From contig MU271205.1 of the NCBI GenBank assembly GCA_021432655.1, positions 62,001-126,000 of the forward strand: a stretch of DNA of 64,000 nucleotides, given 5' to 3'. Origin of the DNA: Atractiella rhizophila (lineage: Eukaryota). Under the pieces are notes generated by a model, which saw only the letters and a program-made list of their open reading frames with translations, was not told where the DNA came from and ran no database searches. Every line of letters begins with the position of its first letter. Position 1 is the stretch's first letter. Of the stretch, positions 5,236 through 37,188 are shown piece after piece. Made by a program: the position numbers and the translations under genes.

Positions 5236-5266
<31 letters not shown>

Positions 5267-6689
5267 TCAACCTTCCTTCCCCTCCACCTCCCAGTATACC
5301 CTCGACGAAGATCCGCCGTCGTTACCGCCCATCGTGAGGGTGACGGATACGAATGGGACCTGGTGGAAGTCTCGCGGGGTCGCGCATCCCGGCATCGTCG
5401 CGCGAAGCGACGTCTCGCACACGAACTCGCACTCCACCGTGGTGACACGACCGCCTTCTTCCCTTTCTAATGACACGGCGTCTACGTCCGCTTCCCTGAG
5501 ACGTCTAAGGCTTCCGGACTATGTGGAGCGGCGAAGCAGGGCTGGGAGCTTGGGTCTGGGATGGGAGGATATTTTGAGTCCGCGTCCAATTGCTTCTTCT
5601 TGGCGGGAAGAGGAGGAATTGCGAGAGAGGGAGCGTAGAAGTGAGGTCACCTTGATGAGGAGGAAGGAGGTGAGGAGAAGGAGGAATAGTGTGGATCGAA
5701 CGGGGGAGGAGATCATGAGTCCTCGACCGGAGAGGAGGGGAAGAAATGATCGTTGGGTCGGAAATTTGGAGGATTGGGCATTGAGGGAGGGAGAGGACGC
5801 TACATTTGGATGGCGTTTTGGAGCTTCAGGCTCACGGTCTCATGTAAACGATGATAGGTTTGGACTGGACCAGTCGACCGTTCATCCCCTTCCTATGCCA
5901 ACTTATGCACCTCTCCCATCCTATCACACCCTTCCATCCCGCATGATGAACCATCCTTCCACCTCTCAAAACACGCATTTTTCCCATTCCTCCTCCTCCA
6001 GTCTCCTCCCTAACTTTCATCTTCGTCGACCTTCATCACCTCCTCGGGGGATCATGGATCAGAGACCGCTCAATCCCACCTCCTTCAGGTTCATAACCAA
6101 GTTTCCGGACCCCGGACGGTATTCTCAACCGCAAGATAAAGGGAGGAGAGCGTGGACGGGCTGGAAGTGGGCTCTGTTGGGAAGCGCGACGGCGCTGCTC
6201 ATCTACTCGTTGTTGGGACTGGCGAGCAGTTTGTCGGTTTGGCTCCTGTGTATGTTCAACTGTCTATTCTGTGCCAGATGGAGGAAACTGATGGCATGGC
6301 GAGAAGCATGGCAGAATGCGGACGTTGTGCTTGTCGTTAATCATGGACTGTTGCTGTGTGCGTCCTCCATCCTTTTATGTGAGGAGGAGCTCATTGTTGA
6401 TTCGTGGATGAGTAGTCATCACTTTCACTTCCTGTTTCACTTACCTCCTCTCTCTTCTCGCTTTCACTTCGACGCTCCTAAACAGCCGTCCGCTCCTTAC
6501 ATTGTACAACGTGATGCTCTGGCCATCGTTGATCCTCGTTCTTGCCGCAGGTCTGGCACTCCTATTTCATATGACAGACGTTAATTAAAGGTCACTTTCA
6601 GGCTACCAGGCTTACCATCTCGACCATTTCAATCTCGATGGAAAGCTTTCAGAGAGATGGAGTAGGGAATGGGAAGAGGAAGGTCGTCT
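3622..6689. repeat. Tandem segmental duplication, copy 2
   Basis: Colinear with 433-3542 and continues into the complete tetraspanin 3' end. Confidence 0.95.
3899..4408 (-). CDS. RFA3: Replication protein A 14 kDa subunit (RPA3), copy 2, 3 exons
   Basis: Same exon structure and, by eye, the same protein as copy 1. Differences are synonymous or intronic. Confidence 0.85.
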
Positions 6690-11899: not shown

Positions 11900-14225
<2,326 letters not shown>

Positions 14226-14333
14226 AGTTTCCGGTCCTAGTTGCTGGCTTCTGGGGATATCGTGTGAGATGTTGAGGCCAGGTGAGGTGGTTGAGTGCTT
14301 AAGTACTGACGATGTGTTGAATGAGTTTCTACA

Positions 14334-14370
14334 GATGAGATCGATGAGATCGCCAATCTTTGCGACCAAA
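14334..14370 (+). promoter_or_regulatory. PAC-like (GATGAG x2) and RRPE-like (AAAAAAATT) motifs in the divergent PGM/BRX1 promoter
   Basis: GATGAGATC in tandem at 14334 and 14343, followed by caaaaaaaattgg, ~120 bp upstream of the BRX1 ATG. Confidence 0.3.
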
Positions 14371-14469
14371 AAAAATTGGTTGCGCCCTCCCGCGCACTTT
14401 GAACCTACTAGTACTTTACAAACCTTTAGAAATATTGAATTTCGAGCTCCCTTGAAGTTTCTGTCTCCC

Positions 14470-15576
14470 ATGGCACCTACAGAACTTACGAAATCTCTCG
14501 GAAAGCGGAAGCGGGCCGATTCAGGCGAATCCTCCTCTTCCGACGACGAAGCAGCAGCAGTTGCACCTCCCAAAGCTTCCAGCGCTTCGAAAACCGGGAC
14601 GACCATCTACAAGCAGAAAGTTCTGCTGCTATGCTCTCGGGGGGTCACATTCCACCACCGGCATCTCGTCTCGGACCTCTTCTCCCTCCTCCCGCATTCG
14701 AAGAAAGAGAGCAAGCTGTCGGACAAGCACTCGCTGCCCCAGATCAATGAACTCTGTTTCCTGAGCTCGTGCACTGTTGCTATGTTCTTTGAGAGTCGCA
14801 GACAGAACGATATGCTCTACCTTTGGACGGCGCTCGCACCTAATGGACCGAGCATTCGCTTTCAGGTGCTGAGCACTAATACGATGGAGGAGCTGAGGTT
14901 TGAAGGAAATTGCCTGAAAGGAGGAAGAGGGATCGTGCTCTTTGGACAAGAGTTTGAAAGCTCGGATATGTGGAAGACATGCAAAGAGATACTGGGACGG
15001 GTGAGCTTTTCTGTTTTGGTTCTGTATATCGGTGTTGAGGAAAGGGGCATGTGAAGGCTTTCGCAGTTCCCAAAACGTCAAGAAGAGTAAAACCCTTCAT
15101 CGATCGCATCATCAACTTCTCCATTCTAGACGGCAAGATCTGGTTCCGGCACTACCAGATCATCGAAGAGTCCTCTCCAGCTTTAAAAACGAAAAAGTCT
15201 AAAACTGCCGCGACTTCCGACCAAGCTGGAGGGGAGGTAGAGGAAGAGAAGGACGGTATGCGGCTCGTCGAGATTGGGCCCCGCTTTGTTCTCCTCCCAA
15301 TCAAGATCTTCGAAGGTAGTTTCTGTGGTGCTACCGTATATGAAAACCCCGGTTCGTCCTTCTCCACCTCTTTCTTAGGTTTTGCTAACGGCACGAGCAG
15401 AATTCGTCCCTCCCTCTCAGGTCGCGGCTGCAAAGCGTCTCGAGAAGGCAGACAAATATTTGAAGAGGAAAGGAAAGCAGATGGAGCGCACGGCGCGGGA
15501 GGCAGAGATTCAGGAGATGTTGGAAGAGGAGAGGGAGAACCAAGGGTTCATGGAGAAGAGGGCTGTCTTTGCTTAG
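14470..15576 (+). CDS. BRX1: Ribosome biogenesis protein Brx1 (Brix domain); 3 exons
   Basis: KQKVLLLCSRGVTFHHRHLVSDLFSLLPHSKKESK, APNGPSIRF, TMEELRFEGNCLKG, VKPFIDRI, KIWFRHYQI, and the Brix signature LVEIGPRFVLLPIKIFEGSFCGATVYENP. Confidence 0.96.
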
Positions 15577-15807
15577 CCACATGTGGTCGAATATATTCAG
15601 CTTTTCCTCTCACAATCGCTCTTCCGCTCCGTGCTACTGTCCTTCCGCTAAAGCGCTTGCAAACAAGGATAGAGCACAGCTTGACACAGCCACGTGACCC
15701 GGAGCGTCAAGCTCCTTCACGACTTCACGACGACCATATAAGACTTTACAGTATTTGCCTTGCTTGTCTCACTCCCAAGCTTTCACGACAATCTGGCATT
15801 CCGCAGA

Positions 15808-16437
15808 ATGGCATCCACCCTCCCCCCTAACCTCTCCGTGCTCCTTTCCCGGCCTGCCCCAAGCCTCGCTCCTCCCACGTCTGTTTATGACCCGGATTTG
15901 ACGGTGCAGATTGAAAAGGCCGGAAAGGGGAAGGGGAAAAATTGGAGAGCCGGTACGTCCCTCTTCTTCCCAGAATTTGAGAGTGCCACTGATGGAAGCT
16001 GAGACAGCGCTGCATCTGCTCAACGACGATATCAATGCTTGCCACGAACTGGTGCAGTCTCAAGAAGGGGTCAGTCGTTCCTCTCTCCGACTCCGTGGAG
16101 CAGTAGCTAAAGAGTAGATGTAGAATATGATCAGCGACTCGATGCACGCGATGCTTCACCGCCGTGAAGGTATGTGCATTCTCGATTCCTCAGATGCCTT
16201 AGTAATCTTACAAACCCATCGCCAGGAGAGTACTGGAACAGCAAATGGTGGCTTTCTCGAATCAACAACCCGGTCTTTAAATCTCTTCATGGTTCTTCCT
16301 CTGGAGCAAAGAGCTTCGTGGATCGAGTAGAACAAGCTGTCCTCAACAACCGGGGAGATAGCGAGGAGGAGCTGAAAGAACTCCAGTGGACGGAACTGAA
16401 GGAGGTTGCTGAGCAAGCATTCAATGAATCTCGATGA
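15808..16437 (+). CDS. Small conserved hypothetical protein; multi-exon
   Basis: Spliced exons give ...NWRA/ALHLLNDDINACHELVQSQEG/..SDSMHAMLHRREG/EYWNSKWWLSRINNPVF. This is a His-rich motif set I recall from uncharacterised fungal/bacterial proteins. Introns are GT-AG. Confidence 0.7.
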
Positions 16438-16547: not shown

Positions 16548-18243
16548 TTAGTGATAAATAGTGAACGGGCGCGTCCTCGCGAACCCTACACGCACTTTCT
16601 CAGAATCCCAAACGGTGTAATAATGCTGCAGACCACTAAGCTGACATGGACAAGGACAAAACGATGCTAGTCAAACGCACCTTGAACAAGGAAGAACCGA
16701 TAATGGGAGGTAACTCGTATTGTCCTCCATCGATAGTAATGAACGCAGCATCATTGATAAAGGTTTGTAAATACCCTTCTTGACCCGTAGCGGGACCAAC
16801 GGTCAGCTCGCTGGAGGGGACGACGAGAACAGTGTCATTCCCTGATTCGTCCTTGAAGCTGAAAGACAGTTTGGAGAGTAAATTTTTAGCGTCCCCTTTC
16901 TTGATCATGTACGTTCCCAGTTCGGATGGATTGGGAACTATTTTCTTAGAAATAGAGGAGTATATGGCCTGGATAGCCTGTTTGAGTAAATTTTGCGTCT
17001 ATAAATCACTCACACGAGTGATATTCTTCGGCAAGTTCATGGTGGACGTGCCTGTACAGTAAGACGTCAACAACAACAGAAAGATCCCATAGAACGACTT
17101 ACCAGAATCAAAGATGATACTGAGTGGGACTTCAAAGCCTGGAACCGCTTTGCCTTCGTTCACCTTGAGAGATGTGGCATTGAGGATCCAATATCCGTCC
17201 GAATTATCAGCAGGGATGTAAGTAGGCTCTCCTCGAAACTTGCTGTAGTCGATGCCCCCAAGAGTCAGCTCTGCACCGCCGACACGCGCAGGCGTAAAGT
17301 AAAGTGAGAAGACAGCTGTGAAACAAAAATGAGCATAGATCCTGTCACGAATGAGGGATGCTGCTGGCGCACAGGGTAGACCTTGCTGCACTAGCTTTCC
17401 AAAAAACGAGCCAGGAGCAGAACCGAGGCCCAAGAGAGCTTCAATTGGTATATCTCGCCACAAAGGGGTCTCACTACCACCATTCTGTGAGCATCAGTCG
17501 ACGATAGACGCTCGATGCTTACTCCTCTATGAGCCAAAAGTCAACGTCATCCACAATAAAGTTTGCGAGTTGGACGCGGTCTGTTGCGCCACTCAGCGTC
17601 AAAGTCCAATCTGTAGTCTACAGGTTCTATCAGCTTGATAGAATCTCGCGCAGACGACATACTGTGTTCGTGATCTGTTGAACGGGGTGCACACCAACGC
17701 CGGTCGTGAAAGGCAAGACCATAGTATCATTGCTTCGCGCTCGAAATGTAGAGCTTTGCGACGCATTGAACCGTCGATGATTGGCACAAGATGCGCAGGA
17801 GGAACCTGCATTTCCAATAACCCAACCGTTGAAATGTATTAATGCTTGGCTTACTCGGAATTTCCAAGTCAAAGCTTCCACTTTAAGGAAAGTAAGCTTT
17901 TCCTGACCAGGAGGTCAAGAAAAGAACTCGCGTGTCGAAAACAACTGTGAAGGTTTGTGGTGGTGTTCCCACATGAATCTCGCCATACCACCTAGCCACA
18001 TACGGTAAGTTATGTATGCTCGCTCAAATCTGAAGCTCACTGAAGGTCAGTTCCATTGAAATAATCTCTGAGGCGGACACTACTAGCTTTCAATGGATTT
18101 GTCTCCAAATTTCGCCTTCCCGATCCAAGCTGTATCTTTCTTGAGGTGAGTTCCACAGTAAGCGGCTGTATCTTTTGCTTTGAAATAGCAAAAGGACGAG
18201 CCGCGAGTAATGCAATAAAGAAAAGGACGAGCGGAGGAATCAT
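16548..18243 (-). CDS. Secreted pepsin-like (A1) aspartic protease; multi-exon
   Basis: Signal peptide MIPPLVLFFIALLAA, DYFNGTDLQ/WYGEIHVGTPPQTFTVVFDT/GSFDLEIP (first catalytic Asp), VFSLYFTP..GAELTLGGIDYSKF, second site IIFDSG/TSTM, IIGSSLFK. Confidence 0.93.
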
Positions 18244-18688
18244 GATCTGGGGGTTGAATATTTGGGAGGCGACGACAAAAGTGAGTGTTATGTGAACGCC
18301 CCCTACTTATATCGTTCATAAGGAGGCCAAAGTGCAGCTAATTACATACCGGATTGGATGTGGGCGTAACGGGGAGAGCGGATGGAGCATCAGCAGAGGT
18401 GCAAGAGAAAAGGTAGCTGATACAATGTGGCTGTCCATGAACTCGAATAAAGCAACGCGCCAGATACAACCATAATGGCAGGCCAGAGCCGCGGATTCAC
18501 ACCCCCGCTCAGTGCGGCGGCGGCGGTGCCCCAACCAGGATAGAGTAGACTCGGAGTGGAAAAAACGGAATGGGAGTCAACGCTGCACTCTGCCAGGTCC
18601 TGAAATGATCCTGGGAAAGAGCAGTGCTTCAAGAAAGAATATGTGGAAGATTGAGCTCGGCGCGAAGTAAGGACAGGAGGAAACAGTC

Positions 18689-21058
18689 AGGAAAAACGCA
18701 TCAACAGTAAGCTTTCCTGTCATCAGCTTTTCTTGAGCGACCTGGAATGCCGTGGCAGGGGTGAATCTGTCGGATGTGATAAACAGTCCTTCGGCACATT
18801 GTAGTATGATTTTAATGGACGGGTTGAAAGCCAACCTGAACCGACAATCTACGTTGCAAAATAGAGCGATCTGTGGATAAAAAGCTGTACAACTACTGGC
18901 GCTTTTAGAATTACCTTCATGCGTAACGAGGAAGGAGAATAGAGGAGCAATGAGTGAAGTATAAGGGTGACTTTAATAGCACCCTCACTGTGAGTGGATA
19001 ACAGATGGATTCTCTCTTTGCACCAGAACTGATTGTCATCAATAGGAATACATGTTGGAACATGAACACAATGGAACAACGTTACTGAGCCTAGAATTCA
19101 TCTGGAAGAATTAGACCATGAGGAAGACATTGATCACCAAGCAGAGCAGAAGCGCTCAAAGCTGAAGGAATGGTGCGTTCCTTCTTTATATGTGTCTGCA
19201 ACCAGTTCACTAATTCATTATCCATTGCCTACGTATAGCTCATCAAATCAATGGACTCCAAAGCTGCTGGAGGTCCAAAAATACATCGTGAATCTGACAG
19301 CAGAAACCGTCAAAGGCGACCCAGATATCCTAGTTTCAAAGGAGCTACAAGTGCAATTAGCTTATTTGGTTCGTTCCCTCTTAACTCCTCCAACGTTCTC
19401 TCAAGTGACAAAATCATTGGTTAGCATGGAGGTTTGCGTGGTCAGTAGGGTCATGCTCTGAAGATCGTGGGAAAGAGTTTTGGAATGAAACTGCTAGCAA
19501 TTGCCAGACAGCTTGCTTGAAGAGAGAATCAAACTGGAGGCAGATTGACTTTATCTGGCCCAAGGAGCTTCATGAAACCCACTCACAACACGACAACCAA
19601 CGATGAGGCTTGGGTGCGCCTTTCCTCTTTCTTGTGTATGGCACTAGTTCGATAAGTGATGAAGAGAATGAAGTGATATGTGAACAATGTCGTATAGCCG
19701 GCTGCTTCAATGCGTGGCGTGCAGTGGGAATATAAGCAAATTATGCTACTCTTTTGCCAAAAACTGTATGATGTCTTTAGCGGTAGAACATGAATAAATC
19801 ATGCACGTTAGCAGAGATATATCAATGCTTTCCCTACCTACTTTGTGCATAGAGTGACAAAGGAACGAGAGGACCAATTATTGAAGACAATCGACGCATC
19901 GCAAATCTCACTAAAAGCAGGTTCTATCGCTGGCCCGTCTAGCCATTAGGTACAAACACAACTGATTAACATTTCACAAGGTTTCATACAAAAAATGGTG
20001 GTCGGAACAACGACGGTCGATAGGCGGCAATGTTGTCAATATCCCAAGATCCCTACAGACCGAAAATAATTTCTTGTCGTGGAAATTTTGGTAAAGACGC
20101 GCATTCACCACCAAACGTCGCAATTGGGGATGGAGTCCATGCAGCAGATCCTGAACCCAGCAATCCCACCATTCCGAGCTGACATTGAAGTCGGTCCGAA
20201 TTACTTCGATCGTTGATGTAATCTGAGGAATAAGCCCTGCCGAAAAGGTGGAACCACCACATCGTAGCTCTCGAAGCTGCTTAAAGCGTTGGACAGCGGT
20301 CGTTAAAATCGATCCAACTTCGTCTCCTCCCGTTTCGAAATGCTGGTATCGAAGAGCTCGAAGCGTAGGTGTTGTCGCCAGGAAGATGTCCGGTACAGAC
20401 TCGACAGGACAGTCCAAGCAGTGGAGAGCCAATGCCTGAAGACGGGGCGCATTGCGGAGGATGGCGAGCAGCTCGGAAACTCGTGTTGGACCAACTTTGC
20501 TGCGCGACAAGGCGAATGTACGCAAGTGAGGGAACGTTACAGGCTCTTTATCATGACTTTCGAACGCGGTCCATCCAGAAATCTTCAGATGTTGTAGACC
20601 GGTCAGAGGACGCAAGATATCCAGCGGGAACTGGATTGAAAGACGGGACGGTGAAGGCTTGAAATCAAAGGAGGTGAACGTTTTCATGGCGCCAAGAAGG
20701 TCGAAAACATTACGCAATGGTCCCATTGATTTACGTATGGTTGCGTCTGGCGGATCGAAGGAGAGGTGCTGAAGCATCGGACATTGCTTCAGAATACGGA
20801 TGAGCCGTTTCGGATCGACGTAAGGGCAGCGCAAGTCGAGAGATCTTATGAGAGGACCAATATGACTGTTCGCCTCGAGGCGAGCTCTAAAGGTCTCAAG
20901 CTGGTCCGATTCAAGATCGATGTTCTCGTGCATCAAAAGACGTGCGAGAGAGCACCAGGAACGTCGAACTAGTGACAGTTCCGCCAGTTCGATATGGGCG
21001 AACCTTGCGGTCGTGTACCCGGTATAGACAACCATCCGGAAAATTCGAAGGAGGAGCT
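18689..21058. repeat. Inverted duplication, left arm (template)
   Basis: Its reverse complement matches 30481-32823. The ORF track shows mirrored ORFs (19974-/30115+, 18849-/32455+, 20053-/31275+). Confidence 0.95.
19100..19600 (+). pseudogene. Degraded spliced gene fragment of unknown family (inverted copy at ~31940-32440)
   Basis: Two canonical-looking introns (gtgcgt..tag at ~19173, gttcgt..tag at ~19368) separate coding-like segments (EQKRSKLKEW/LIKSMDSKAA..VQKYIVNLTAETVKGDPDILVSKELQVQLAYL/HGGLRGQ). Frameshifts and stops are present. Confidence 0.4.
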
Positions 21059-21232
21059 CGCGAGGTAGCAGCGATAGAGACTGCGTATCGTTCTGGTATT
21101 CCCAACACTACCCGCAAGTCTTTGTTAGGGACCATTGAACATGTATAGAAAAGAACAAACCATATTCACGTCTTCCTCACTCTTCGCGGGCGAAGACCGC
21201 TCATACAAGCAATTATCATCGCTGGTGTCCAT
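19974..21232 (-). CDS. F-box / RNI-like LRR protein, copy 1 (one short 5' intron)
   Basis: F-box-like LSLLPRELLLRIFRMV..LAELSLVRRSW followed by LxxLxL repeats (LQHLSF, LQHLKIS, LRTFALS, LQALAL, LRELRC). ATG at 21232. Confidence 0.8.
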
Positions 21233-23431
21233 GTCGTCGACTTCGTTGGCAGTTCTGCCGCTATTGGTGGAGTAAGAGCTCTTCGTCTGTGTCCCATGAG
21301 TTGAATACTTGGGAAAAAGCGGGCGAAATACACTTCCAGCCTAAGGGGCGTGTCAGGTGACGAGGAATGCGTGAATAGCTGATCCGTGTTGCTTGAGGAG
21401 GGCTTTGTGTTTGTGCACATGCTACGATTGCCAACGGAATTAAACCTATGGAGAACGAGGGCCATGTGAGAACGGTGTCAAAGTGGAATATGAAAGGGAC
21501 TTGTACTGAGGAGGTTGATTGGCGAGCGCTGTGGAAAAGCATAAAGCTACATCCTGGGGTAATGTCTCAGCTCAAAGGTTTCAGTTGCACCTACAAGTCT
21601 CCACTCACCCGCTGGACCGCGGCAGCTGAAAACTGTTTACGAGCTGTTTCGTCGCGTAGAATGGTTGAATCATCGTGCAAATTGACGCGATATTTGTTTC
21701 AAAACAAGTCTGAAGTGGTAAATATCTCAATGAGCTATTACCACACCAAATCGCTTGCAAGGGATGACGCGCTGTACGAAGACAACAATACAGCGTTTCT
21801 AAAGCGTTGGTGCTGATGACATAATATTCCTGCACGCACTCTTACCGTCAATGATACCATGATGGCGGGATTCGGGAAGTACGTAAGGTTTGGTTGGCCG
21901 CTTTATCCTGCTCCTGAGTGCTTAGCTCAAGCAGGCTCAAGGAAAAAACACGACAGCCGACCTGACAGCAGCAACCAATACCAATAGTAGCCAAAGCGAC
22001 CTGTTGACCAAGAGAATGCTAGAAACAAAGCAAGCGATGGTGGAGTGGTTAAAGTGTACAATTGGGATTATTCTCCTCAGATAACCGGCACACTAGTCGT
22101 TGACGATGAACCTCTAAAGAACCCAAGGGGCTCCTCGCTCAAGCGCAAAATGTTGCTCCAGTCGAAGGGTTCGGTTTGGAATTGGTAAAAACCTTTTGAT
22201 TGTAGGAGAAAACTGATCGGCTCACCTGCCGCGCTAGCTCATTACATGTCCCTTCAAAACGCATTGTCATCCCTCAAGCCTCATCCCTTATTCCTGACGC
22301 AAGATCTCCCTCCCATTGAGATGTACTATCTAGAAATCTCAACGTTCGACTCGCCCTTCAAGTTTCAACCTTGGGGGCCTGGAATGGGCAGATAAGGGAA
22401 GGTCTCCCGGGTCAGATACGCCGCCGATGGGAGACTTAAACTGTCTAGATTCTTGTTATGATGTCTCCCGAAGTAAATACATATCAATATCTAAAATTTT
22501 GGCATGTGGCTTCGTCTACATGCCCCAGAATTTTGAGTAGTTAGCGAAATGGGAATTGAGACGACGAGCCTTCTATATGTCATGCAGAATTCATACTCAA
22601 AACTCTTTGTCGATGTGCATGCCACAACTCTCCATGGAAAATAAGTACGAGAAGAAGTGACTCCAAGTTTCTCCACCATATCTAAAACCAGATAGCTTTC
22701 CTTATTCAGATCGCGAAGGAGCCCGACAGTGCTCTCAGTCAAGCAGAATAAAGCTCAAATATTGTTAGTACTCAATCCACGATATCGATGATATTAATGT
22801 CATCAGCGACGACGAGCAGTATCATGTGAGCTATTTAGAGGCTGCGTGAGAGTACTGGTACTGACAGACAATCTGCCAAGCTACTCCTCCAAAACTACTT
22901 CCAGTAGTTCATTCTGTCCTGTAGGGCTCTCATAGCTGATTACTGCACTGATGTTCGATCTTCGGTAGCAATAAACAGTGACGCTTTCGAGATCATATAC
23001 AGGATTAAGAACTAATGCATTACCCAGTTCCTTAGTAGCGATGGACGAAAGATAAATAATCAACCTATGCGAACTTATACAAGAATGCATCAATGCATCA
23101 CTCCTAAGTTCCTTTTAATTTCACGACCATGAAACATGAGAGGAAGGCTGTGAGGATCCAAGAATGAAATGACGAATGAAAGAGTTATAATTATGCACAT
23201 TCGGTTGGCATTTTCCATCCTTCAGTTGAAGGACGACCTCGATGCCTGCGCTCGGATATCATCTGCTCAACGAGATGTGAACGGATCAATCGACGCGCAA
23301 ACGGTCCATCCATCCCCACCACCGGCTCCCGGCGACACGTCGATACAGCAACTCGAGGGAGGACTGTATGAGTAGTACGCCAGAAGGATTCTGCGCACCA
23401 ATTCGACGAAGGATAGTCAGCAATCCGCAAT

Positions 23432-25211
23432 ATCAATGAATCAATGTGTGAGTTGGGTTAATCCCGCCGCAGGTTCGCGGCGACGAAATCCGACGCGTTC
23501 CTTCCACTCCCGCAGCTTTCGCCGAGTTTATAAGGAGTTCATTCCCTCTCTCAGGAACATAACTGCGGCTGCAACGTCCACGAATAGAAGGAAGAAAGAC
23601 TCACAAATCTCTCCTCTACCCGCTCTCCTTGTCCCCACTCAGCATCCTGTTTGACCTTCCTAAATACGCCTTCGTAACCCTCGATCATGCCACCAACATC
23701 CAAGCATTGCACCCCACCTCCGTCCATCCACATTTTTCTCAAATCCTCACAAACGGCTTTCTCCGCCTCTCTCATCTGGTGACTTCTTACACCCACACTC
23801 CACGCTTCGTCCTGTTCCTTCTCAGTCGCCCCTTGCGCGATGGGCAGAGGTGATTGATGGCGAGGCGTTAGGAGAAGTGAGAGGGTTGAAGAGGGAAAGG
23901 CACGCTGGAGGCTATGGAGTGTGGATTTCAAAGCGAGGGTGTAAGATAAGAGGTGATCGGGAGAGAGTGACATGGGATGTCCCAAATACTGATTCGGGTC
24001 AGGCAAGCGATCGACGAGTTCCCATCCTTCCTCTCCTCCCTCTCCTCCCTCTCCCTCCTCCTCTTCCGAAGAAGAAGAATTCCACATCCTCCTTACACCT
24101 TCCTCCTCCCAAACCAATTCCAACAGCGGCGGTGGCAGCCTCGCGTCCTGCAACAGATCCAAGTCTTCTTCTGAAGCGGAGAGGACGATTACGTCCGGTG
24201 TGGTTTTCCGATACTCTTTCCCCAACACGCGGCGTACGAAAGGTCGTATGCGACGATGGAGATCCTCTTCTATTCCGGGGAGGAGTGGAGATGGGGGCGC
24301 GAGTAGGGGGATGGGAAGAGGGAGGGAGAGTAGGCGGAGTTTGGAGTGGGGAAGCTCGCAGACTGTCATCTCTTCTCCATCCTCTCCTGATGAAGATACA
24401 GAGGACGAGTGGGAGGAGAGCGGAATAGTGCGTACAGGCGCGTGGAAGTAAGAGCAGAGAGTACGAAGGTGGAGAGAGACCGTGGGAGTTGAGAGGTAGA
24501 GGATTGTTCGGATGCGTAGAGGGGAGAGATTGTGTGGCGATAAGACGCTAGATTCAGGGAGTGGAGGAGAATAAAGGGCTTCTTCTCCCATCCCGTCAGG
24601 CCATATCCACCCTTCACTTTCCATTCCGTCTCCTTCCTCTTCCCCTTCTCGAATGATTGAGCCTCGTACCCAACCTAAAGATTCCCTCACTCGCTCCTCC
24701 GAAAAGATCCCATCCACTTCCTCTCCGAGCGAACCAACCATCTCTTCCATCTCTACACTCACACCCTCTACATCTTCCGGTCCGCCTTCCCAATCCCAAC
24801 CCTTTGTACGCTGAATTCCAGACTGCGAACGCCAATCGAGGTAGAGGGAGAGGAGGAGATTTGGATTCGCTTTTGCTTCAGGTAACGAATCTGAATCCGA
24901 GAAGGCTGCTTGGGAGAAGAACAAGGGAGAGTAATGCGTTTTGAAGGGATGTGAAAGGTTGAGAAGCAGTAAGCCAGGAGAAAGAATGTCATTCCTGGGT
25001 GTAGTACATCGTACGCTGGATGCTTCGAGGCTGTTCATGTAGCAATCAATCCACATTCAAAACCTGTTACCCCAAGCTGCTAAAATGAGGATGGGAAAAC
25101 ATACGAAGGTCCTGAGGGAAGCGTATAGAAGCCAACGATGACTGCAACGACGAGGGAGATGACGAGTCGCCGAGTGAGGGTGAGATGTCGCAGGTGGTGA
25201 TAAAGGTCCAT
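23432..25211 (-). CDS. Type II membrane protein, degenerate SGNH/PC-esterase (Cap64-like) paralog A
   Basis: N-terminal TM (RRLVISLVVAVIVGFYTL) and a ~500-codon open exon. It shares motifs with 35718-37188 (LNLSHPF, RTILYLSTPTVSLHLRTLCSYF, PDVIVLS, YLGHPMSL, WSVGVRSHQMR, CLDVGGMIEGY). The 3' end is approximate and the family is inferred. Confidence 0.7.
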
Positions 25212-28565: not shown

Positions 28566-30303
28566 ACAAGGCACATTGTGCTTGTTCCTTGGCTAGGCGA
28601 CAGATTGTCTTGTCAATGGTGTCTCTACATATTCGTTCTCCCTATCACCAGTCCCCATTTCCCAAATTCCTATGCCCCGCTCATCTAGTATTCAGACGCT
28701 TGGTCCTGGTCTTTCTCCCTAATGCGTAAGGGGAGCTAACGTGAGGTGAGGAGAGAGTATACGATGCTGAGGGTCGAGCGTACTCAGTTCTTGTCCTCCT
28801 TCTGCTTTGTCGACGAATGCCACGTCCTCATCGCATCCTCTTCCTCACGATCCTTCCAACTGGCAAGACGAGAACCATGATCTCTCGAGTTGTTTGGCGG
28901 TACTCTTTAGCTGAGAGGCTGCCGATGAATGGCCATATGTAACGACGGAGGTGCTGCTCTATTTGAGGCAGGATTGATGGGACAGTCGTAGCGGCAAACC
29001 ATGATATATATGATTCGCTGCCGTACTGACCTTTCTGATCGAGGAAGGCATAGACCACCATTACCGATGGGCAAAGCCAGTTTGCGCTTGGAGCGTGCAC
29101 ACATTTCAACAGAATTCGAGGAAAGGGAAGGAGAGCAGAGATTCCGTCCTCAGCTCATAGGTGATGACTCTACATAATAGTTCAAGAGTTCAAGCGGGAA
29201 AAAGGAAGCGTAGATATCCCACTCGGCACCAATCCAAAAATGCCGTCCCATTAACCCATTGCTGAACGCTCGGAGAAACTCATTTCTTATCACTCTGTAC
29301 TAATAGTCCCCAATCACTTATCAGTGTGCAAGCGATACAAATAGTTATGTGATTGAGGAAAAGAAGAAGAAGGGAAACATATGAAGCTATACTTATAAGC
29401 CCGGGTTCGCGGTGAGGTGCATATGTTTGGTACGGCATCCAGAACGCGAGGCAAACGAAACAAACAGATGACATCTACCGATCTTCAACACGTATGATAG
29501 TACTAATGGATTGAGTTGCAATGGAACTCTGGTACCCTGCTAGATGTGGTATCGAATCTGTAAAATCGCATGCCTGGTTAACGCGAGGTATCACGTGTTA
29601 CCACGACAACTTTACGTGTTATGTAATCAGACCCTGTCAGATTGTAGACGACCAAACGGATAACAAGAGCGGCCACAGGGTTTGTTGATAGCAAGAGTAA
29701 GCGCAGTAAGCACAGAACAGCAACTTTCTGCATTAATTGGAGCAAACGGTGAGTTATTCCCTTCACTAGTGATGGGAGTGTCTGAAGGGCTTTGTTTATC
29801 GCTCAGGCTTTTTCTCGACCAATACTCCATTAATTTTCACGATGTTCCAACCACTTTGTGCACAGGCACACATTGGAAAACATAGCTTTACGCCCCAATC
29901 AGCCCAGCAGGTGAGTCGAGAGGTAACAACTGAAACCTTCGAACTAAGACATCATCCCAGGATGGGGTTTCTTCATGCGTTCCAATGGCAGCCAACAACC
30001 AAACTCCCCAGTACAGCTTTCCTTTATCCTTCGCTTTCGCACCTGTCTCACACCTCCCTCTTTGTTTAGAGGTTTGATTTCTTCTCTTCTTATTGAGTTG
30101 ATCACTGAGCGAATTTGTGTGGAAGCAGAAGTCTTCAAATAGCGTCAACAAGATCACCTTTCCTGCACCACCATCTTCAGCTTTTATGGCTAATTCACCC
30201 CTTTCGTTACAAGTACGTATTTTTGCGGCTGTGGCAGTATCTGACGAGTTCGAGACAGACTATCGGTTCATATTCTACCAGCAATCCCACCGAATGCGAC
30301 GAT

Positions 30304-31563
30304 ATGGACACGAGTGACGACGATTCCTTGTTTGCTCCTTCATCACCCGCAAAAGCTGAGGAGGATGTTGACATGGTTCGTTCCTTGATTGAGAATCTCA
30401 GAATGACATCCATGCTGATTGGTCCGCAGTGCTGGGAACACCAGAACGACACCCAGTCTTTATCGATGCTACCGCGGGAACTCCTCCTTCGAATTTTCCG
30501 GATGGTTGTCTATACCAGGTACTCGACCGCAAGGTTCGCCCATACCGAACTGGCGGAACTGTCACTAGTTCGACGTTCCTGGTGCTCTCTCGCACGTCTT
30601 TTGATGCACGAGAACATCGATCTTGAATCGGACCAGCTTGAGACCTTTAGAGCTCGCCTCGAGGCGAACAGTCATATTGGTCCTCTCATAAGATCTCTCG
30701 ACTTGCGCTGCCCTTACGTCGATCCGAAACGGCTCATCCGTATTCTGAAGCAATGTCCGATGCTTCAACACCTCTCCTTCGATCCGCCAGACGCAACCAT
30801 ACGTAAATCAATGGGACCATTGCGTAATGTTTTCGACCTTCTTGGCGCCATGAAAACGTTCACCTCCTTTGATTTCAAGCCTTCACCGTCCCGTCTTTCA
30901 ATCCAGTTCCCGCTGGATATCTTGCGTCCTCTAACCGATCTACAACATCTGAAGATTTCTGGATGGACCGCGTTCGAAAGTCATGACAAAGAGCCTGTAA
31001 CGTTCCCTCACTTGCGTACATTCGCCTTGTCGCGCAGCAAAGTGGGTCCAACACGAGTTTCCGAGCTGCTCGCCATCCTCCGCAATGCGCCGCGTCTACA
31101 GGCATTGGCTCTCCACTGCTTGGACTGTCCTGTCGAGTCTGTACCGGACATCTTCCTGGCGACAACACCTACGCTTCGAGCTCTTCGATACCAGCATTTC
31201 GAAACGGGAGGAGACGAAGTTGGATCGATTTTAACGACCGCTGTCCAACGCTTTAAGCAGCTTCGAGAGCTACGATGTGGTGGTTCCACCTTTTCGGCAG
31301 GGCTTATTCCTCAGATTACATCAACGATCGAAGTAATTCGGACCGACTTCAATGTCAGCTCGGAATGGTGGGATTGCTGGGTTCAGGATCTGCTGCATGG
31401 ACTCCATCCCCAATTGCGACGTTTGGTGGTGAATGCGCGTCTTTACCAAAATTTCCACGACAAGAAATTATTTTCGGTCTGTAGGGATCTTGGGATATCG
31501 ACAACATTGCCGCCTATCAACCGTCGTTGTCCCGACCACCATTTTTTGTATGAAACCTTGTGA
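30304..31563 (+). CDS. F-box / RNI-like LRR protein, chimeric copy (diverged 5' end + near-identical copy of 19974-21058)
   Basis: ORF 30115-31563. ATG at 30304 (MDTSDDDS), with an intron at the same position as in copy 1. The protein is nearly identical to copy 1 from LLLRIF onward. Confidence 0.8.
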   Translation: MDTSDDDSLFAPSSPAKAEEDVDMVRSLIENLRMTSMLIGPQCWEHQNDTQSLSMLPRELLLRIFRMVVYTRYSTARFAHTELAELSLVRRSWCSLARLLMHENIDLESDQLETFRARLEANSHIGPLIRSLDLRCPYVDPKRLIRILKQCPMLQHLSFDPPDATIRKSMGPLRNVFDLLGAMKTFTSFDFKPSPSRLSIQFPLDILRPLTDLQHLKISGWTAFESHDKEPVTFPHLRTFALSRSKVGPTRVSELLAILRNAPRLQALALHCLDCPVESVPDIFLATTPTLRALRYQHFETGGDEVGSILTTAVQRFKQLRELRCGGSTFSAGLIPQITSTIEVIRTDFNVSSEWWDCWVQDLLHGLHPQLRRLVVNARLYQNFHDKKLFSVCRDLGISTTLPPINRRCPDHHFLYETL

Positions 31564-32823
31564 AATGTTAATCAGTTGAGATATATCAATGCTTTCCCTA
31601 CCTACTTTATGCATAGAGCGACAAAGGAACGAGAGGACCAATTATTGAAGACAATCGACGCATCGCAAATCTCAGTAAAAGCAGGTTCGATCGCTGGCCC
31701 GTCTAGCCATTAGGTACAAACACTGCTAACGTGCATGATTTATTCATGTTCTACCGCTAAAGACATCATACAGTTTTTGGCAAAAGAGTAGCATAATTTG
31801 CTTATATTCCCACTGCACGCCACGCATTGAAGCAGCCGCTATACGACATTGTTCACATATCACTTCATTCTCCTCATCACTTATTGAACTAGTGCCATAC
31901 ACAAGCAAGAGGAAAGGCGCACCCAAGCCTCACCATTGGTTGTCGTGTTGTGAGTGAGTTTCATGAAGCTCCTTGGGCCAGTTAAAGTCAATCTGCCTCC
32001 AGTTTGATTCTCTCTTCAAGCAAGCTGTCTGGCAATTGCCAGCAGTTTCATTCCAAAACTCTTTCCCACGATCTTCAGAGCATCACCCCACTGACCACGC
32101 AAACCTCCATGCTAACCAACGATTTTGTCCCTTGAGAGAACGCTGGAGGAGTTAAGAGGGAACGAACCAAATAAGCTAATTGCACTTGTAGCTCCTTTGA
32201 AACTAGGATATCTGGGTCGCCTTTGACGGTTTCTGCTGTAAGATCAACGATGTTTTTTGCACCTCGGCTGCCTTGGAGTCCATTGATTTGATGAGCTAGA
32301 CGTAGGCAATGGATGATGAATTAGAGAACTGGTTGCAGACACGTATAAAGAAGGAACGCACCATTCCTTCAGCTTTGAGCGCTTCTGCTTTGCTTGGGGA
32401 TCAATGTCTTCCTCATGGTCTAATTCTTCCAGATGAATTCTAGGCTCAGTAACATTGTTCCATTGTGTTCATGGTCCAACATGTATTCCTATTGATGACA
32501 ATCAGTTCTGGTGCAAAGAGAGAATCCATCTGATATCCACTCACAGTGAGGGTGCTATTAAAGCCATCCTTATACTTCACTCATTGCTCTTCTATTCTCC
32601 TTCCTCGTTACGCATGAAGGTAATTCTAAAAGCGCCAGTTGTTGTACAGCTTTTGCAACGTAGATTGTCGGTTCAGGTTGGCTTTCAACCCGTCCTTTGA
32701 AATCATACTACAATGTGTCGAAGGACTGTTTATCACGTCCGACAGATTCACCCCTGCCACGGCATTCCGAGTCACTCAAGAAAAGCTGATGACAGGAAAG
32801 CTTACCGTTGATGCGTTTTTCCT
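30481..32823. repeat. Inverted duplication, right arm
   Basis: Reverse complement of 18689-21058, apart from the internal 144-bp inversion and small indels. Confidence 0.95.
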
Positions 32824-33673
32824 TCGGTCCGAAGAAGTTCATCCGTATCCTTAACGAGTGCCCGACGCTCCAACACTTTTCCTGTGATCCAGCATGCTAC
32901 TGGGAATACGGACGCCGTTTTCGACGTTCTCGGGTCAATGAAAACTTTTGTCTCGCTCGACTTGGGATGCTGGGATCCATCCCATCCATTCGAATTCTCG
33001 CTGGACATCCTGCGTCCTCTGAGCGGTCTACGACACTTGAAGCTGTCACAATGGACTGCTATCGAAGGGAATGGGAAGGTGCCTCCAGTGTTCCCTCGCT
33101 TGCGTACATTCGTCTTGTCCCACTGTAAACTCGATGAAGCACATGCTTCCGACCTGCTCGACATCCTTCGCAATGCGCCGGAACTCCAAGCATTGTCCCT
33201 GGTCAACTGGGACTGCCAAGTCGGGATGTTAGAGCAAATCTTCAAGGTGACGACGCCTACCCTTCAGGCTCTTCGATTCGGAGCCTTTGAGATGTGGGGA
33301 GACTTTAGTGGGATTGGATGGGCTGTCGGTGTCGGTCTTGTTCACTTCAAGAATCTCAGGGAACTACACTGTCGCGGCTTCATGTTTCCATCGGTCTTTC
33401 TTTCTGCAATTGCATCGACGATTGAAGTCGTTGGGATGGACTGTCACCTCAATCCGGATTGGCACGATTGTTGGGTCCAGTTTCTGCAAGAGGGACTTTA
33501 TCGATATTTGGGTGACTCAGCTTCTGAAGCAACATTCCCACGAGAAACTCTTTTCACTATGTAGGAGTATTGGGATCTCGACAACGTTACCTTCGCGGCT
33601 CGTTTATTCAAGCGACGACTTTATGTATGAAGCTTTGAGAATGTCTGTGCCTGTGTTTGAATGTTTACAATGA
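32824..33673 (+). pseudogene. 5'-truncated, frameshifted F-box/LRR paralog remnant
   Basis: PKKFIRILNECPTLQHFSCDP / VFDVLGSMKTF..FSLDILRPLSGLRHLKLSQWTA..FPRLRTFVLS..WHDCWVQ / HEKLFSLCRSIGISTTLP align to the F-box protein across three reading frames. It starts exactly where the inverted arm ends. Confidence 0.85.
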
Positions 33674-34341: not shown

Positions 34342-35128
34342 CATGTAGAAGGTGTGAGTGTGTGAGTGTAGAGATGGAAGCGATGGTCGGTTCGCTCAGA
34401 GAGGAGGTGGATAGGATCTTTACGGAGGAGCGAGTGAGCGCATCTTGGGACAGGTACGAGGTTCAATCTTCGAGAGGAGAAGGAGGTGGAATAGACAGTC
34501 AAGGGTGGATATGGCCTGACGGCATCGGAGAAGAGGTCCTTTATTATCCTCCATTTCTTGAACCCAGCATGTTGTCAGCGGACGACCTCTCCCTCTCCGC
34601 ACCTCAACAATTATCTACCTCTCAGCGATCTCGACTCCCACGGTCTCTCTCCGGCCCGAACTCTCGGCTCTGACGTCCATACGCCCACTAGCACCATTCC
34701 TCTACCTCATCGCACTCGTCCTCCGCACCATGATCGGGAGACGACGAAGTGTGGAGTGTAGGCGCAAGGCGTCATCAGATGAAAGTGGCGGAGAAAGCTG
34801 TTTGTGAGGATCTGAACAAGATGTGGATGGACGAAGGCTGTGTACAATGCTTGAACTTTGGTGGAAGGATTGAGGTTTATGGTGGCGTATTAGGAAGCTA
34901 AAGCAGGATGCGGAGTAGGGACAAGGAGAGACGTGAGTGCTTCCCTATGTTCTGGAACGAAACCGCATATCTTTCCTGAGAGAAGAGGGAATGAACTCCT
35001 TATAAATGCGGCGAAAGCTGGTGTGGAAGGAACGAGTCAGATTTCGTTGAGCTAATAGAGTGTTCCGCCTGTGGCGAGCTCAACCAACTCCTCTGTTGAC
35101 TCATTGGCATTGCGGATCGCTGACTGTC
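34342..35128 (+). pseudogene. Internally deleted, degenerate inverted copy of the 23432-25211 gene
   Basis: gtagaaggtgtgagtgt..gagatggaag..GWIWPDGIGEE matches revcomp 24770-24400, then jumps to match 23800-23415. Stops and frameshifts are present. Confidence 0.85.
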
Positions 35129-35717
35129 ATGAAATCATCTAATCGTACATCAGGTGCCGAAAATTTGACAGACAACACAACCTGAACAAGGAAAGCAGCC
35201 TCATTAAGGTCACTACTTCGCGTAGGTTATTTACTGACGAAATGGGGCATGCACATCAAAAAAGAGTTTTGAGGATGGATTCTACATGGCACGTAGCGAA
35301 GGCTCGTTCTGTCATTTGACCAATTACTCAACTTCCGGTGTATGGCTATGAGAAGCAACATCTGATTTCACAAATTTTGGCTATTCACTTCGGCGGACAT
35401 CACAACAAAGGTCCAGGACAGTTTAAGTGCTGGAGGTATATGTGATTGCTTTCCTCAATAGGAAGCTATCTTTACTTCGGTTTATCGGATTCTCATTTAC
35501 CTGCTCCGACTCCTGGAGCTTTCACGGGGTTCGCGACACTGGGTTCTCCTATTGTTTCCTTGGCATTGATGAGTACTCTGGAGGAAAGGCAGTGGAGACA
35601 ACAGTACTTTTGCTTGTAGATTCCACCATCTCCCTCTCTGACACCGCGGTGTAGTTTCCTTCGGTCGTACCTTATCCTTTCCTTTTAAATACCCGTTTAT
35701 TCACGAATGGAGCCAAA

Positions 35718-37188
35718 ATGGATCCTGCCCATTCCTACCCTCCGTTGCCACACAAACGCTTTCCTTCTGCCATCCCTTCTCGACAAAAGAGGTTCCTTTT
35801 TCTCACAGCTCTAGTTGTCTTTGGAATCCTGCTTATTTGGCAAAATACAGTAACATCTTCATCCCAGTTGGTACTTCCTGATCTGTTTGTCAGTATGCTG
35901 ATGGAGTGTTAGCACGCAAGAATATTTTGGCGGTCCTCTTTTGCAAGGAGGAAGGGATATACTTCAGCTTGGGAAACTGAGATTGAATTTAAGCCACCCT
36001 TTCCGCACGCAGTACATACCCATATCAGCTTCGGAACAGGATGAACCAAACTATCTTCTTTCTATTTACCGAGCTTGGACAGATGGCTGGAAAGAAGGAG
36101 AAGATGGACCGCAGAGCTTGGAAGAGGTGACGGACGAGATGGTAGAAATGATGGGACCCATCATGAAGGAAGACGACATGTTCGCAGCAAAGGAGGGTAT
36201 TTCTACGGAAAATCCGGCTATTCATCTACCCGAGTCTCAACATGTCTCTCTTCACGAACGCACAGTTCTCCTTCTGTCCACCACTGGAGACAGTCTCCAT
36301 CTTGCTTCCCTCTGCTCCTATTTCTCCACCGCAACTCACACCATCCCGTATCGTTGGTCCCCAGTTTCAGAGGAGGGAGAGGAGGAAGAAGTACTGCTCA
36401 CAGCATGCTCTCTGCCACAATCTTCAATTACATTCCTCTCGCTTCCTATTCCAATGCCGATCCTCTCAACTTCCGCATTCGAAAACTACATCCGTCGAGT
36501 GGTTTTACCCTTGGCAACGCCTTTTCAGGACGAATATTGTCGTGGTCATAGTGCCACCTCCAGATGGGCGCCGGACGTCGTCGTGTTCTCCTCCACGGAT
36601 CAAGACATCACAAGTCTTTCGAGCACAGACTTGTCTCCCTCCCAATTTCGGCAATTGTTACAAGAAGGTGATATATCCAGGATGTATTCCACAAACTTGC
36701 TATCTCATTTTTGGGGCATGTCTTCTTCATATCTCGGGCATTCTATGTCCCTTCCTCCCGACAAAATGGAAGTTTATCGAATCGCACTTACTCGTGCATT
36801 CCAAGTGCTTATGGAGACGTTTTCTACTTCTGCCATTGCTTTCAATCTCACACCGAGGCAGCCATTGAACTCGATCATGAAAGAGGAGGAAGAGGAGGCG
36901 ACCTGGAGCACGGTTCTAAGATCGCATATGATGAGGAATGTAGAACGGTATGTGTGCCAAGGGCTAAGCCTCGACCGGGGTACAGAGTGCTTCGATGTCG
37001 GGGGTATGATGGAGGGATACGGTGGAACATTCTCAAGAGGAAGCTTTGTGAGTGTCTTTCTTCTCATTCTTTGATGAAACACGGCTTAGAGCATACGTCG
37101 CCAGAATCCTGAAGGAGTTCTCTTGCTTCAAAAAGTACTGGAAGTACTAGGCAGACGTGGCGAAGGGAATATCAATCATGAGAAATAG
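35718..37188 (+). CDS. Type II membrane protein, degenerate SGNH/PC-esterase (Cap64-like) paralog B; 3 exons
   Basis: N-terminal TM (RFLFLTALVVFGILLIW), ERTVLLLSTTGDSLHLASLCSYF, PDVVVFSSTDQD and CFDVGGMMEGY. The last exon ends HEK* at 37186-37188. Confidence 0.72.

What the first reader, a model, noticed from the sequence alone, without database searches (positions are those of the whole stretch)
30304..33673. Chimeric F-box gene made by one-sided templated insertion: homologous start, non-homologous end
Seen: the right F-box gene is clearly diverged from the left gene over its first ~180 bp (MDTSDDDSLFAPSSPAK vs MDTSDDNCLYERSSPAK, with a different intron sequence). It switches to near identity at ~30481 and copies the rest of the left gene plus ~1.25 kb of its downstream flank. 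At 32823/32824 it drops abruptly into the middle of a diverged F-box paralog (PKKFIRILNECP). Inference: an older paralog was broken, invaded its inverted sister ~10 kb away through the F-box homology, copied ~2.35 kb and rejoined non-homologously. The result is a promoter/N-terminus-swapped chimera plus an orphaned 3' pseudogene. This would be a snapshot of how expanded F-box/LRR families are shuffled and homogenised.
Basis: partly seen in the sequence, partly recalled or inferred. Interest (0 to 1): 0.72.

Follow-up and report, generated by a model that had tools for sequence, protein, structure and literature searches.

The report
Chimeric fungal gene from patch repair
One of two neighbouring, oppositely oriented fungal genes had most of its body overwritten by a 2.3-kb copy of the other gene, leaving its own tail behind as a dead fragment; this is a clean natural example of a DNA-repair outcome already known from experiments.

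Summary
The right gene (R, ATG 30304, + strand) is 66% identical to the left gene (L, ATG 21232, - strand) up to 30480. It is 98.8% identical from 30481 to the stop at 31563 and about 96% through 1.1 kb of L's 3' flank. Homology ends at 32823. From 32824 a frameshifted 3' part of an older paralog begins, in register with gene position 30719.

- a 144-bp segment (31579-31722) is inverted between the copies;
- the flank has three indels;
- the family is tiny in the databases, not visibly expanded.

Independent data support the structure. A public Atractiella rhizophila protein has the same R-type start and L-type body. DNA contigs of another strain carry the 32823/32824 junction. Spliced contigs from three runs join R's own 5' exons to the copied body.

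Best reading (0.62): a break in the old right gene was repaired by strand invasion at the conserved F-box-like motif, about 2.34 kb of synthesis on L, and non-homologous rejoining. In at least one other strain the two copies were later made identical again.

A two-step route and an old partly homogenised inverted duplication are not excluded. No pre-insertion allele was found. This is a new member of a known kind, of moderate interest.

The parts
18689..19813 (-). Donor 3' flank of the left gene L. It is the template for R 31724-32823. Homology ends at 18689.
   Evidence: 45 of 1100 substitutions and 3 indel events against R
19815..19958 (.). 144-bp block in L that lies in the opposite orientation to its R counterpart.
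   Evidence: 19814-19959 and 31578-31723 match as a direct repeat, 142 of 146.: strain X1 has the L orientation.
19974..21232 (-). Left gene L, the donor. Exon 1 is 21232-21161, the 53-nt intron is 21160-21108, and exon 2 is 21107-19974 including the stop. It encodes an LRR protein with a weak F-box-like motif.
   Evidence: P0002 is 371 of 377 identical to exon 2
21438..21722 (-). Upstream block of L that keeps old (65%) homology to R's upstream block.
   Evidence: 292 columns, 65.4%, E 1.3e-28
29795..30079 (+). Upstream and 5'-leader block of R with old homology to L's upstream block.
   Evidence: Spliced contigs start at 29972.
30304..30480 (+). Retained 5' coding piece of the old right paralog. 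It comprises exon 1 (30304-30375), the 54-nt intron (30376-30429) and the first 17 codons of exon 2.
   Evidence: 60 of 176 differ from L. The intron is spliced out in contigs of X3, X4 and X5 and in P0002.
30481..31563 (+). Copied coding tract of L type up to the stop codon. The 5' junction at 30480/30481 lies inside the LPRELLLRIF motif.
   Evidence: 13 of 1083 differences, 6 synonymous and 7 non-synonymous
31579..31722 (.). 144-bp block inverted in R relative to L. It starts 15 nt after the stop codon and has at most 1 nt shared at each edge.
   Evidence: joints 31578/31722 and 31579/31723, 'both' = 1
31723..32823 (+). Copied 3' flank of L, about 96% identical. It ends at the non-homologous junction 32823/32824.
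   Evidence: X1 unitig 32794-33042 and X3 contig 32805-33042 cross the junction.
32824..33673 (+). Orphaned 3' remnant of the old right paralog. It corresponds to gene positions from 30719 to the stop, is about 66% identical to R, and is read in three frames.
   Evidence: Indels differ among strains at 32889, 33186, 33279 and 33639.

Best explanation
Two old, inverted paralogs once sat about 9 kb apart, roughly 66% identical and still alignable in their upstream regions.

Inferred sequence of events:
1. The right gene suffered a break between its positions 181 and 415.
2. The left-hand 3' end invaded the left gene L at the conserved F-box-like motif.
3. DNA synthesis ran through the rest of L's coding sequence and 1.25 kb of L's unique 3' flank, 2,343 bp in all.
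4. The new strand was rejoined without homology to the other broken end, which had lost sequence up to gene position 30719.

This matches long-tract ectopic gene conversion with non-canonical (end-joining) termination, also called one-sided invasion.

What is shown:
- a transcribed, spliced chimera with R's own promoter, leader introns, exon 1 and 17 codons, followed by an L body;
- a promoterless, frameshifted tail lying behind the copied flank.

Later history, partly shown: in at least one other strain L and R were made identical again by ordinary gene conversion. The window's R kept or gained 13 coding differences and a 144-bp inversion.
For: Step and junctions:
- The step in identity lies at 30480/30481. 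Synonymous divergence drops from 7 changes in 17 codons to pS 0.023 within one exon.
- The copied tract runs 1.1 kb beyond the gene into sequence that is unique to L's flank.
- The end of homology at 32823 abuts the remnant directly, with no spacer. The remnant aligns from gene position 30719, so 238 bp of the old gene are missing and the 5' piece and remnant do not overlap.
- The window holds no other F-box-like 5' part, and there is no remnant beyond 18689 on the L side.

Age:
- Flank divergence of 4.1% and synonymous divergence of 2.3% do not differ significantly (Fisher p 0.21). One event plus purifying selection (pN/pS 0.38) is enough to explain the window.

Independent data:
- P0002 carries R residues before the junction and the L residue at all 7 post-junction amino-acid differences.
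- The shared unitigs of X1 and X3 both begin at 30481.
- X1 has one contig that starts at 32794 and crosses the junction, and another that leaves R at 32823 and continues with L's flank.
- X3, X4 and X5 contigs splice 30070-30126, 30213-30258 and 30375-30429 and run on into the copied body.

Later re-conversion:
- X1 shows a single sequence version over 30481-31838. Alternative-letter depth equals total depth at every listed site.
- It carries the L-type letter at 11 listed sites. A 12th is inferred from the contigs' difference counts.
- Its contig depth is 310-321, against 142-189 for unique flanks.
- Position 30597 is T in both window copies but A in X1, X3 and X4.

Known mechanism:
- Hartlerode et al. 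2016, PMC5104497 (abstract read).
- Repair-mediated duplications in vertebrates, PMC2671141 (abstract and passages read).
Against: - No pre-insertion (uninterrupted) allele was seen. None of the 4 runs laid shows a joint from 30480 to 32824, and protein searches found no intact relative of the remnant beyond the diverged P0001.
- Microhomology at 32823/32824 cannot be scored, because the lost recipient sequence is unknown.
- X1's junction unitig has only 30 letters left of the junction, one short of the tool's own bridging rule of 31. X3's contig has 19 letters there plus 26 more beyond a 52-nt skip.
- No run is from the window's own strain; the best word share is 0.62. The window's assembly itself was therefore not checked by its own reads.
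- The tool warns that contig depth is not copy number, so the 'two copies collapsed' reading of X1 is an inference.
- Three differences within 65 bp after the junction, against 10 in the next 1018 bp (p 0.04), form a small shoulder that a clean single junction does not predict.
- P0001 has an L-like 5' end but a diverged body. Mosaics therefore recur in this family, and segment trees are unreliable.
Confidence: 0.62

Rival explanations
1. Two-step origin. A complete copy of L with its flank was first inserted by end joining into the old right gene at position 30719. A later deletion between the two directly repeated F-box-like 5' parts, by single-strand annealing or unequal exchange, removed old positions 181-415 together with the copy's promoter and exon 1. 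This leaves the same final structure.
For: It yields exactly the observed layout: an in-register 5' junction inside the most conserved motif and a non-homologous 3' junction. Repair-mediated capture of nearby DNA with non-homologous ends is documented in PMC2671141.
Against: It needs two rare events where one suffices. No intermediate was seen: X1 and X3 share the unitig start at 30481, and P0002 and X4 also show R-type sequence upstream of the junction running into the copied body.
Confidence: 0.15
2. An old inverted segmental duplication. L with its promoter and flank (18689 to about 21720) was copied long ago next to or into a paralog. The outer 2.34 kb has since been kept alike by recurrent gene conversion, while the inner 0.7 kb (promoter and 5' end) escaped and diverged. 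On this reading 30304-30480 was never part of the remnant's gene.
For: Old homology continues upstream at 65% over 292 columns. Recurrent conversion between L and R is supported in strain X1 and at position 30597.
Against: - It needs the remnant's own 5' half to have been deleted without trace.
- It needs conversion to reach exactly to the outer edge. The last 120 bp show no decline, at 6 of 120 against 4.1% overall.
- It needs at least a ten-fold age gap between neighbouring neutral segments, with a boundary sharp to within 4 bp.
Confidence: 0.13
3. Reverse direction. R with its flank and a neighbouring truncated paralog is the original arrangement, and L received the 2.34-kb tract from R.
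For: Sequence identity alone does not give a direction.
Against: Copying from R into L would have had to stop exactly where the remnant starts in R. There is no F-box-like remnant beyond 18689. Only in R does the tract interrupt a gene.
Confidence: 0.05
4. Assembly artefact. The chimera or the 144-bp inversion arose by mis-joining the two near-identical copies.
For: No run from the window's own strain was available (best word share 0.62). The inversion is absent from X1, where a single contig holds the L orientation.
Against: Both junctions of the chimera recur in independent data: P0002, the X1 and X3 unitigs, and the spliced X3, X4 and X5 contigs. The copies differ by 4% in the flank, which is enough for an assembler to separate them. 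For the inversion alone an artefact is not excluded.
Confidence: 0.05

Closest known systems
[quoted passage not shown] 2016, PMC5104497, abstract read; Belmaaza and Chartrand 1994, seen only as a reference in PMC4888836)
   Same: Repair starts homologously, several kilobases are copied from the donor past the end of homology, and rejoining to the second end occurs without homology. Template switching at such breakpoints is reported.
   Different: Those are induced breaks in reporter constructs in mammalian cells, mostly between sister chromatids. Here it is a fixed germline event between diverged inverted paralogs 9 kb apart in a basidiomycete-type fungus. The repair pathway is inferred from the scar alone.
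Repair-mediated duplications by SDSA capture of nearby DNA (Pace et al. 2009, PMC2671141, abstract and passages read)
   Same: A natural, fixed insertion of a copy of linked chromosomal DNA at a break, with loss of recipient sequence at the breakpoint.
   Different: Those events are short: a maximum of 619 bp for linked donors and 3,424 bp for distant ones. They have non-homologous or microhomologous ends on both sides. Here the tract is 2,343 bp, one end is in register within a paralog, and the product is an expressed chimeric gene.
Concerted evolution of inverted paralogs by ectopic gene conversion (general knowledge, recalled; no specific paper read)
   Same: L and R read identically within strain X1 while that strain differs from the window. 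Position 30597 differs between strains but not between the copies.
   Different: Ordinary conversion needs homology on both sides and does not add 1.25 kb of foreign flank or displace a gene's tail. It explains the later homogenisation, not the origin.
F-box/LRR (FBXL-type) substrate receptors of SCF ubiquitin ligases
   Same: An LPRELLLRIF-type motif precedes a leucine-rich repeat region. Pfam LRR_At5g56370 scores above its cut-off. Fold hits include Dia2, TIR1, FBXL17, D3 and SKP2.
   Different: The F-box-like Pfam match is below its cut-off (18.5 against 24.3 bits). The model's N-terminus has low confidence, TM-scores are 0.3-0.47, and generic LRR proteins score equally well.

Membership tests
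One-sided (homology-initiated, end-joining-terminated) long-tract gene conversion | One junction lies in register inside donor-recipient homology | tested here: met
   The change point is 30480/30481, in frame, inside the conserved motif.
One-sided (homology-initiated, end-joining-terminated) long-tract gene conversion | The copied tract runs beyond shared homology into the donor's unique flank | tested here: met
   31564-32823 copies L's flank. The remnant's own 3' flank shows no similarity to it.
One-sided (homology-initiated, end-joining-terminated) long-tract gene conversion | The second junction is non-homologous, with loss of recipient sequence | tested here: met
   At 32823/32824 the remnant resumes at gene position 30719, so 238 bp are missing.
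One-sided (homology-initiated, end-joining-terminated) long-tract gene conversion | Microhomology or added nucleotides at the non-homologous junction | tested here: inconclusive
   The recipient sequence before the junction is lost. At most 0-1 nt can be argued.
One-sided (homology-initiated, end-joining-terminated) long-tract gene conversion | An unfilled (pre-event) allele exists in relatives | tested here: not met
   None of the 4 runs laid shows a joint from 30480 to 32824. No intact relative of the remnant was found. The sampling is very thin.
Concerted evolution by ectopic gene conversion | Paralogs within a strain are more alike than orthologs between strains | tested here: met
   X1 shows one sequence version over 30481-31838, while the window's L and R differ at 13 coding sites. 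Position 30597 is T/T in the window and A in X1, X3 and X4. This rests on contigs, not reads.
F-box protein (Pfam F-box / F-box-like) | An F-box domain scoring above the curated threshold | tested here: not met
   PF12937 scores 18.5 bits against a cut-off of 24.3, E 0.0018. Model pLDDT is 31-50 over residues 1-60.
F-box protein (Pfam F-box / F-box-like) | Binding to Skp1 | not tested
   No complex prediction or assay was run.
Leucine-rich repeat protein | An LRR region recognised by profile and by fold | tested here: met
   PF24758 scores 30.7 bits against a cut-off of 27. The alternating strand-helix core has pLDDT 70-90. 79 PDB matches reach E <= 0.001, and all 48 rows shown are LRR proteins.

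The most novel reading that the evidence does not exclude
The pair could be a living system rather than a fossil. After a one-ended repair event created the chimera, the two inverted copies have kept exchanging sequence at different times in different strains. They read identically in one strain and are 1.2% apart, with a 144-bp inversion, in another. If the inversion is a template-switch scar of such an exchange, natural strains of this fungus would give direct rates, tract lengths and error signatures of ectopic repair in a basidiomycete.
Probability: 0.25. Interest if true: 0.5.

Novelty: new member of a known kind. Interest (0 to 1): 0.4.

Why it matters
This is an unusually legible natural scar of a repair outcome otherwise known mainly from reporter assays. 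Both junctions are exact to the base. The displaced tail of the recipient gene is still present. The product is transcribed and spliced from the recipient's promoter.

It shows one concrete route by which a small lineage-specific gene family can swap promoters and N-termini and shed pseudogenes. It also shows that later homogenisation can differ between strains.

It introduces no new mechanism, and the protein's function is unknown.

Tried and rejected
Steps that could not be made:
- The whole genome is not held. Family-wide trees and a search for other paralogs or an empty site in the same genome were therefore impossible.
- Cluster members of P0001 and P0002 could not be listed (database switched off). 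It stays unknown whether the 3 members of P0002's cluster include the window's own L and R.

Hypotheses rejected:
- RIP-like mutation. Only 28 of 45 flank differences and 9 of 13 coding differences are transitions.
- A second, more recent conversion confined to the coding region inside the window. Coding against flank differs (p 2.4e-5), but synonymous sites against flank do not (p 0.21).
- A hairpin or palindrome as the cause of the inverted block. The segment is not self-complementary (16% self-reverse-complement identity), and the DNA fold is weaker than in 194 of 200 shuffles.

Searches that added little:
- Sensitive BLAST for old homology between the remnant's 3' flank and L's flank, and for an F-box 5' part left of 29795, found nothing better than E 0.24.
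- phmmer of R against PDB sequences gave 0 matches at E <= 1.
- Separate 5' and 3' trees were not built. Only four lineages exist (L, R 5' piece with remnant, P0001, P0002), and P0001 is itself a mosaic.
- Earlier scan notes gave nothing near this place.
- Parts of the stretch without cover in X3, X4 and X5 are not interpreted.
Full report
**What is there**

The window is a gene-dense fungal region. It holds a Brix-domain gene (13882-15830, +) and an aspartyl protease (about 16600-18300, -).

Two paralogous genes face away from each other with 9 kb between them.
- L, minus strand: ATG 21232, 53-nt intron 21160-21108, stop at 19974.
- R, plus strand: ATG 30304, 54-nt intron 30376-30429, stop at 31563.

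Their product has an LRR region above the Pfam cut-off (PF24758, 30.7 against 27 bits). It also has an LPRELLLRIF-type F-box-like match below its cut-off (18.5 against 24.3 bits). An AlphaFold model (mean pLDDT 61, LRR core 70-90) hits LRR proteins in general. F-box/LRR receptors such as Dia2, TIR1, FBXL17 and SKP2 are among them, at TM 0.3-0.47. 'F-box' is therefore plausible but not established.

The family is tiny in public data. Only P0002 and P0001 reach E <= 1e-10 among 1.84 billion representatives, and 6 proteins reach E <= 0.001. The source names both P0002 and P0001 as Atractiella rhizophila.

**Check of the observation**

Repeat finding and self-BLAST give inverted arms 18689-21257 and 30279-32823. 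Substitutions between L and R are as follows:

| Segment | Substitutions |
|---|---|
| upstream 29815-30303 | 189 of 453 |
| 30304-30480 | 60 of 176 |
| 30481-31563 | 13 of 1083 |
| 31724-32823 | 45 of 1100, plus indels of 1, 2 and 22 bp |

- The best change point is 30480/30481, with a 2-lnL interval of 30480-30483 and a gain of 288 lnL units.
- Inside exon 2, the 17 codons before the step differ at 9 codons, 7 of them synonymously. After the step pS is 0.023. The step is therefore not a matter of protein constraint.
- Homology to L ends at 32823 (L 18689).
- From 32824 the sequence aligns, without a spacer, to gene position 30719 and onward to a stop at 33673. Identity is about 66%, with several frame-breaking indels.

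- A 144-bp block, 31579-31722 in R and 19815-19958 in L, lies in opposite orientation in the two copies. It starts 15 nt after the stop codon. Compared as a direct repeat, 142 of 146 letters are identical, and at most 1 nt is shared at each edge. The block is not a palindrome and does not fold well.
- Spliced contigs and the public model P0002 show two more introns in R's leader (30070-30126 and 30213-30258) and a possible upstream ATG.

**Independent support**

No run comes from the window's own strain; the best word share is 0.62. Contigs of other strains recur at the same landmarks.
- In X1 (DNA) and in X3, a contig starts at 30481. This is the first base after the last L/R difference, as expected for a graph branch where two sequences merge.
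- In X1, one contig (32794-33042) crosses the 3' junction with 30 letters on its left. That is one fewer than the tool's bridging rule. Another contig leaves R at 32823 and continues with L's own flank.
- The X3 contig 32805-33042 also crosses the 3' junction.
- Contigs of X3, X4 and X5 lack the three introns, with GT..AG ends. X4's contig runs unbroken from R's leader exons to 30934. The chimera is therefore transcribed and spliced.
- P0002 has R residues before the junction, including H and M in exon 2. It has the L residue at all 7 amino-acid differences after the junction, plus 4 private changes.

**Direction and mechanism**

R is the recipient, for three reasons.
- Only in R does the tract interrupt a gene.
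- The end of homology coincides to the base with the truncated start of the remnant.
- Nothing F-box-like lies beyond 18689 on the L side.

The 5' piece (gene positions 1-180) and the remnant (from 416) have the same orientation, do not overlap, and are about equally far from L. Exon 1 differs at 22 of 72 nt, the 17 pre-junction codons of exon 2 at 9 of 51 nt, and the remnant by about 34%. L and R also keep 65% identity over 292 upstream columns, so they were old paralogs, promoters included.

The simplest history has four steps.
1. A break occurred in the old right gene.
2. Its left 3' end invaded L at the conserved motif.
3. Synthesis of 2,343 bp ran through L's body and unique flank.
4. The new strand was rejoined without homology to the second end, with loss of 238 bp.

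This is the experimental category of long-tract gene conversion with non-canonical termination (PMC5104497, abstract read). It also relates to natural repair-mediated duplications (PMC2671141, abstract and passages read). A crossover is excluded as the source, because exchange between inverted repeats inverts the spacer and does not duplicate sequence (established knowledge).

**Age and later history**

Inside the window the coding tract is less diverged than the flank (1.2% against 4.1%, p 2.4e-5). Synonymous sites, at 6 of 265, do not differ from the flank (p 0.21), and pN/pS is 0.38. One event plus purifying selection is therefore enough.

Unique flanks of X1 differ from the window at 17 of 1438 positions across the five listed pieces. 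The event (4% between copies) thus predates the split of these strains, which fits the shared junctions.

In X1, however, only one sequence version exists over 30481-31838.
- Alternative-letter depth equals total depth at every listed site.
- It carries the L-type letter at 11 listed sites. A 12th is inferred from the contigs' difference counts.
- The 144-bp block is in the L orientation.
- Contig depths are 310-321, against 142-189 for unique pieces.

X4 and X5, from another organism label, keep R-type letters at 30517, 30523, 30933, 30987, 31092 and 31098. Position 30597 is T in both window copies but A in X1, X3 and X4.

Together these results indicate renewed conversion of R by L in X1's lineage, and at least one exchange in the window's lineage. 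These inferences rest on contigs, and the tool warns that depth is not copy number.

It remains open whether the inversion is a scar of the original event, later erased in X1, or a change private to the window's R. An assembly error cannot be excluded for the inversion either.

**Rivals**

- A two-step route gives the same end state and cannot be excluded without an intermediate allele. It consists of end-joined insertion of a whole L copy, followed by deletion between the direct 5' repeats.
- An old inverted duplication, homogenised only in its outer 2.34 kb, needs three extra conditions: an untraceable deletion of the remnant's 5' half, conversion reaching exactly to the edge, and a very sharp boundary.
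- The reverse direction of copying is unlikely, for the reasons given under direction.
- A mis-assembly of the chimera as a whole is unlikely, because both junctions recur in independent data.

**Limits**

- No uninterrupted allele was found in the 4 runs laid or in the protein searches.
- The genome itself and the cluster members were not available.

**Verdict**

It is a clear natural instance of a known repair outcome, not a new kind of system.

Noticed in passing
window 547-3542 and 3678-6689: A 3-kb tandem direct duplication at 94.5% identity, with a short repeated linker (3543-3581 against 3600-3638, 100%). Each copy holds a long ORF (543 and 603 aa) with no Pfam match. Its divergence is similar to that of the copied F-box flank.
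   Followed up: partly
window 23551-25056 (-), 34348-35428 (+), 35902-37074 (+): A second small family of unknown function, with no Pfam match, sits beside the F-box-like genes. It has a 501-aa ORF, a partial and degenerate copy (72-77% nt identity in pieces), and a 390-aa ORF at 32% amino-acid identity. A weak fragment also lies at 28793-28974 (-). The start of the partial copy (34347-34500) is covered by a high-depth contig in X3.
   Followed up: partly
window 32295-32362 and 32752-32805 (equivalent to L 18708-19238): X3 contigs carry joints with CT..AC ends. These would be GT..AG introns of a transcript on the opposite strand inside the copied flank. A 131-aa ORF at 19066-19461 (+) in the L copy is split by the 2-bp indel in the R copy. 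The copied flank may therefore carry part of a small convergent gene or non-coding RNA.
   Followed up: no
window 30336: X4 and X5 contigs carry a 9-nt insertion (three extra codons) in R's exon 1 relative to the window, so the retained 5' piece varies in length among strains.
   Followed up: no
P0001 (not in the window): This public paralog has a 5' end and upstream region like L's. Exon 1 has 3 amino-acid differences from L and 6 from R. Its body is only 41-49% identical to L or to the remnant, yet one 30-residue stretch is nearly identical to the remnant. This suggests further mosaic exchanges in the family.
   Followed up: partly
window 32078-32293: X1 shows loose ends at 32078 and 32293 and a joint that skips 32099-32272. 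This hints at a structural difference or a further partial copy of the flank in that strain.
   Followed up: no
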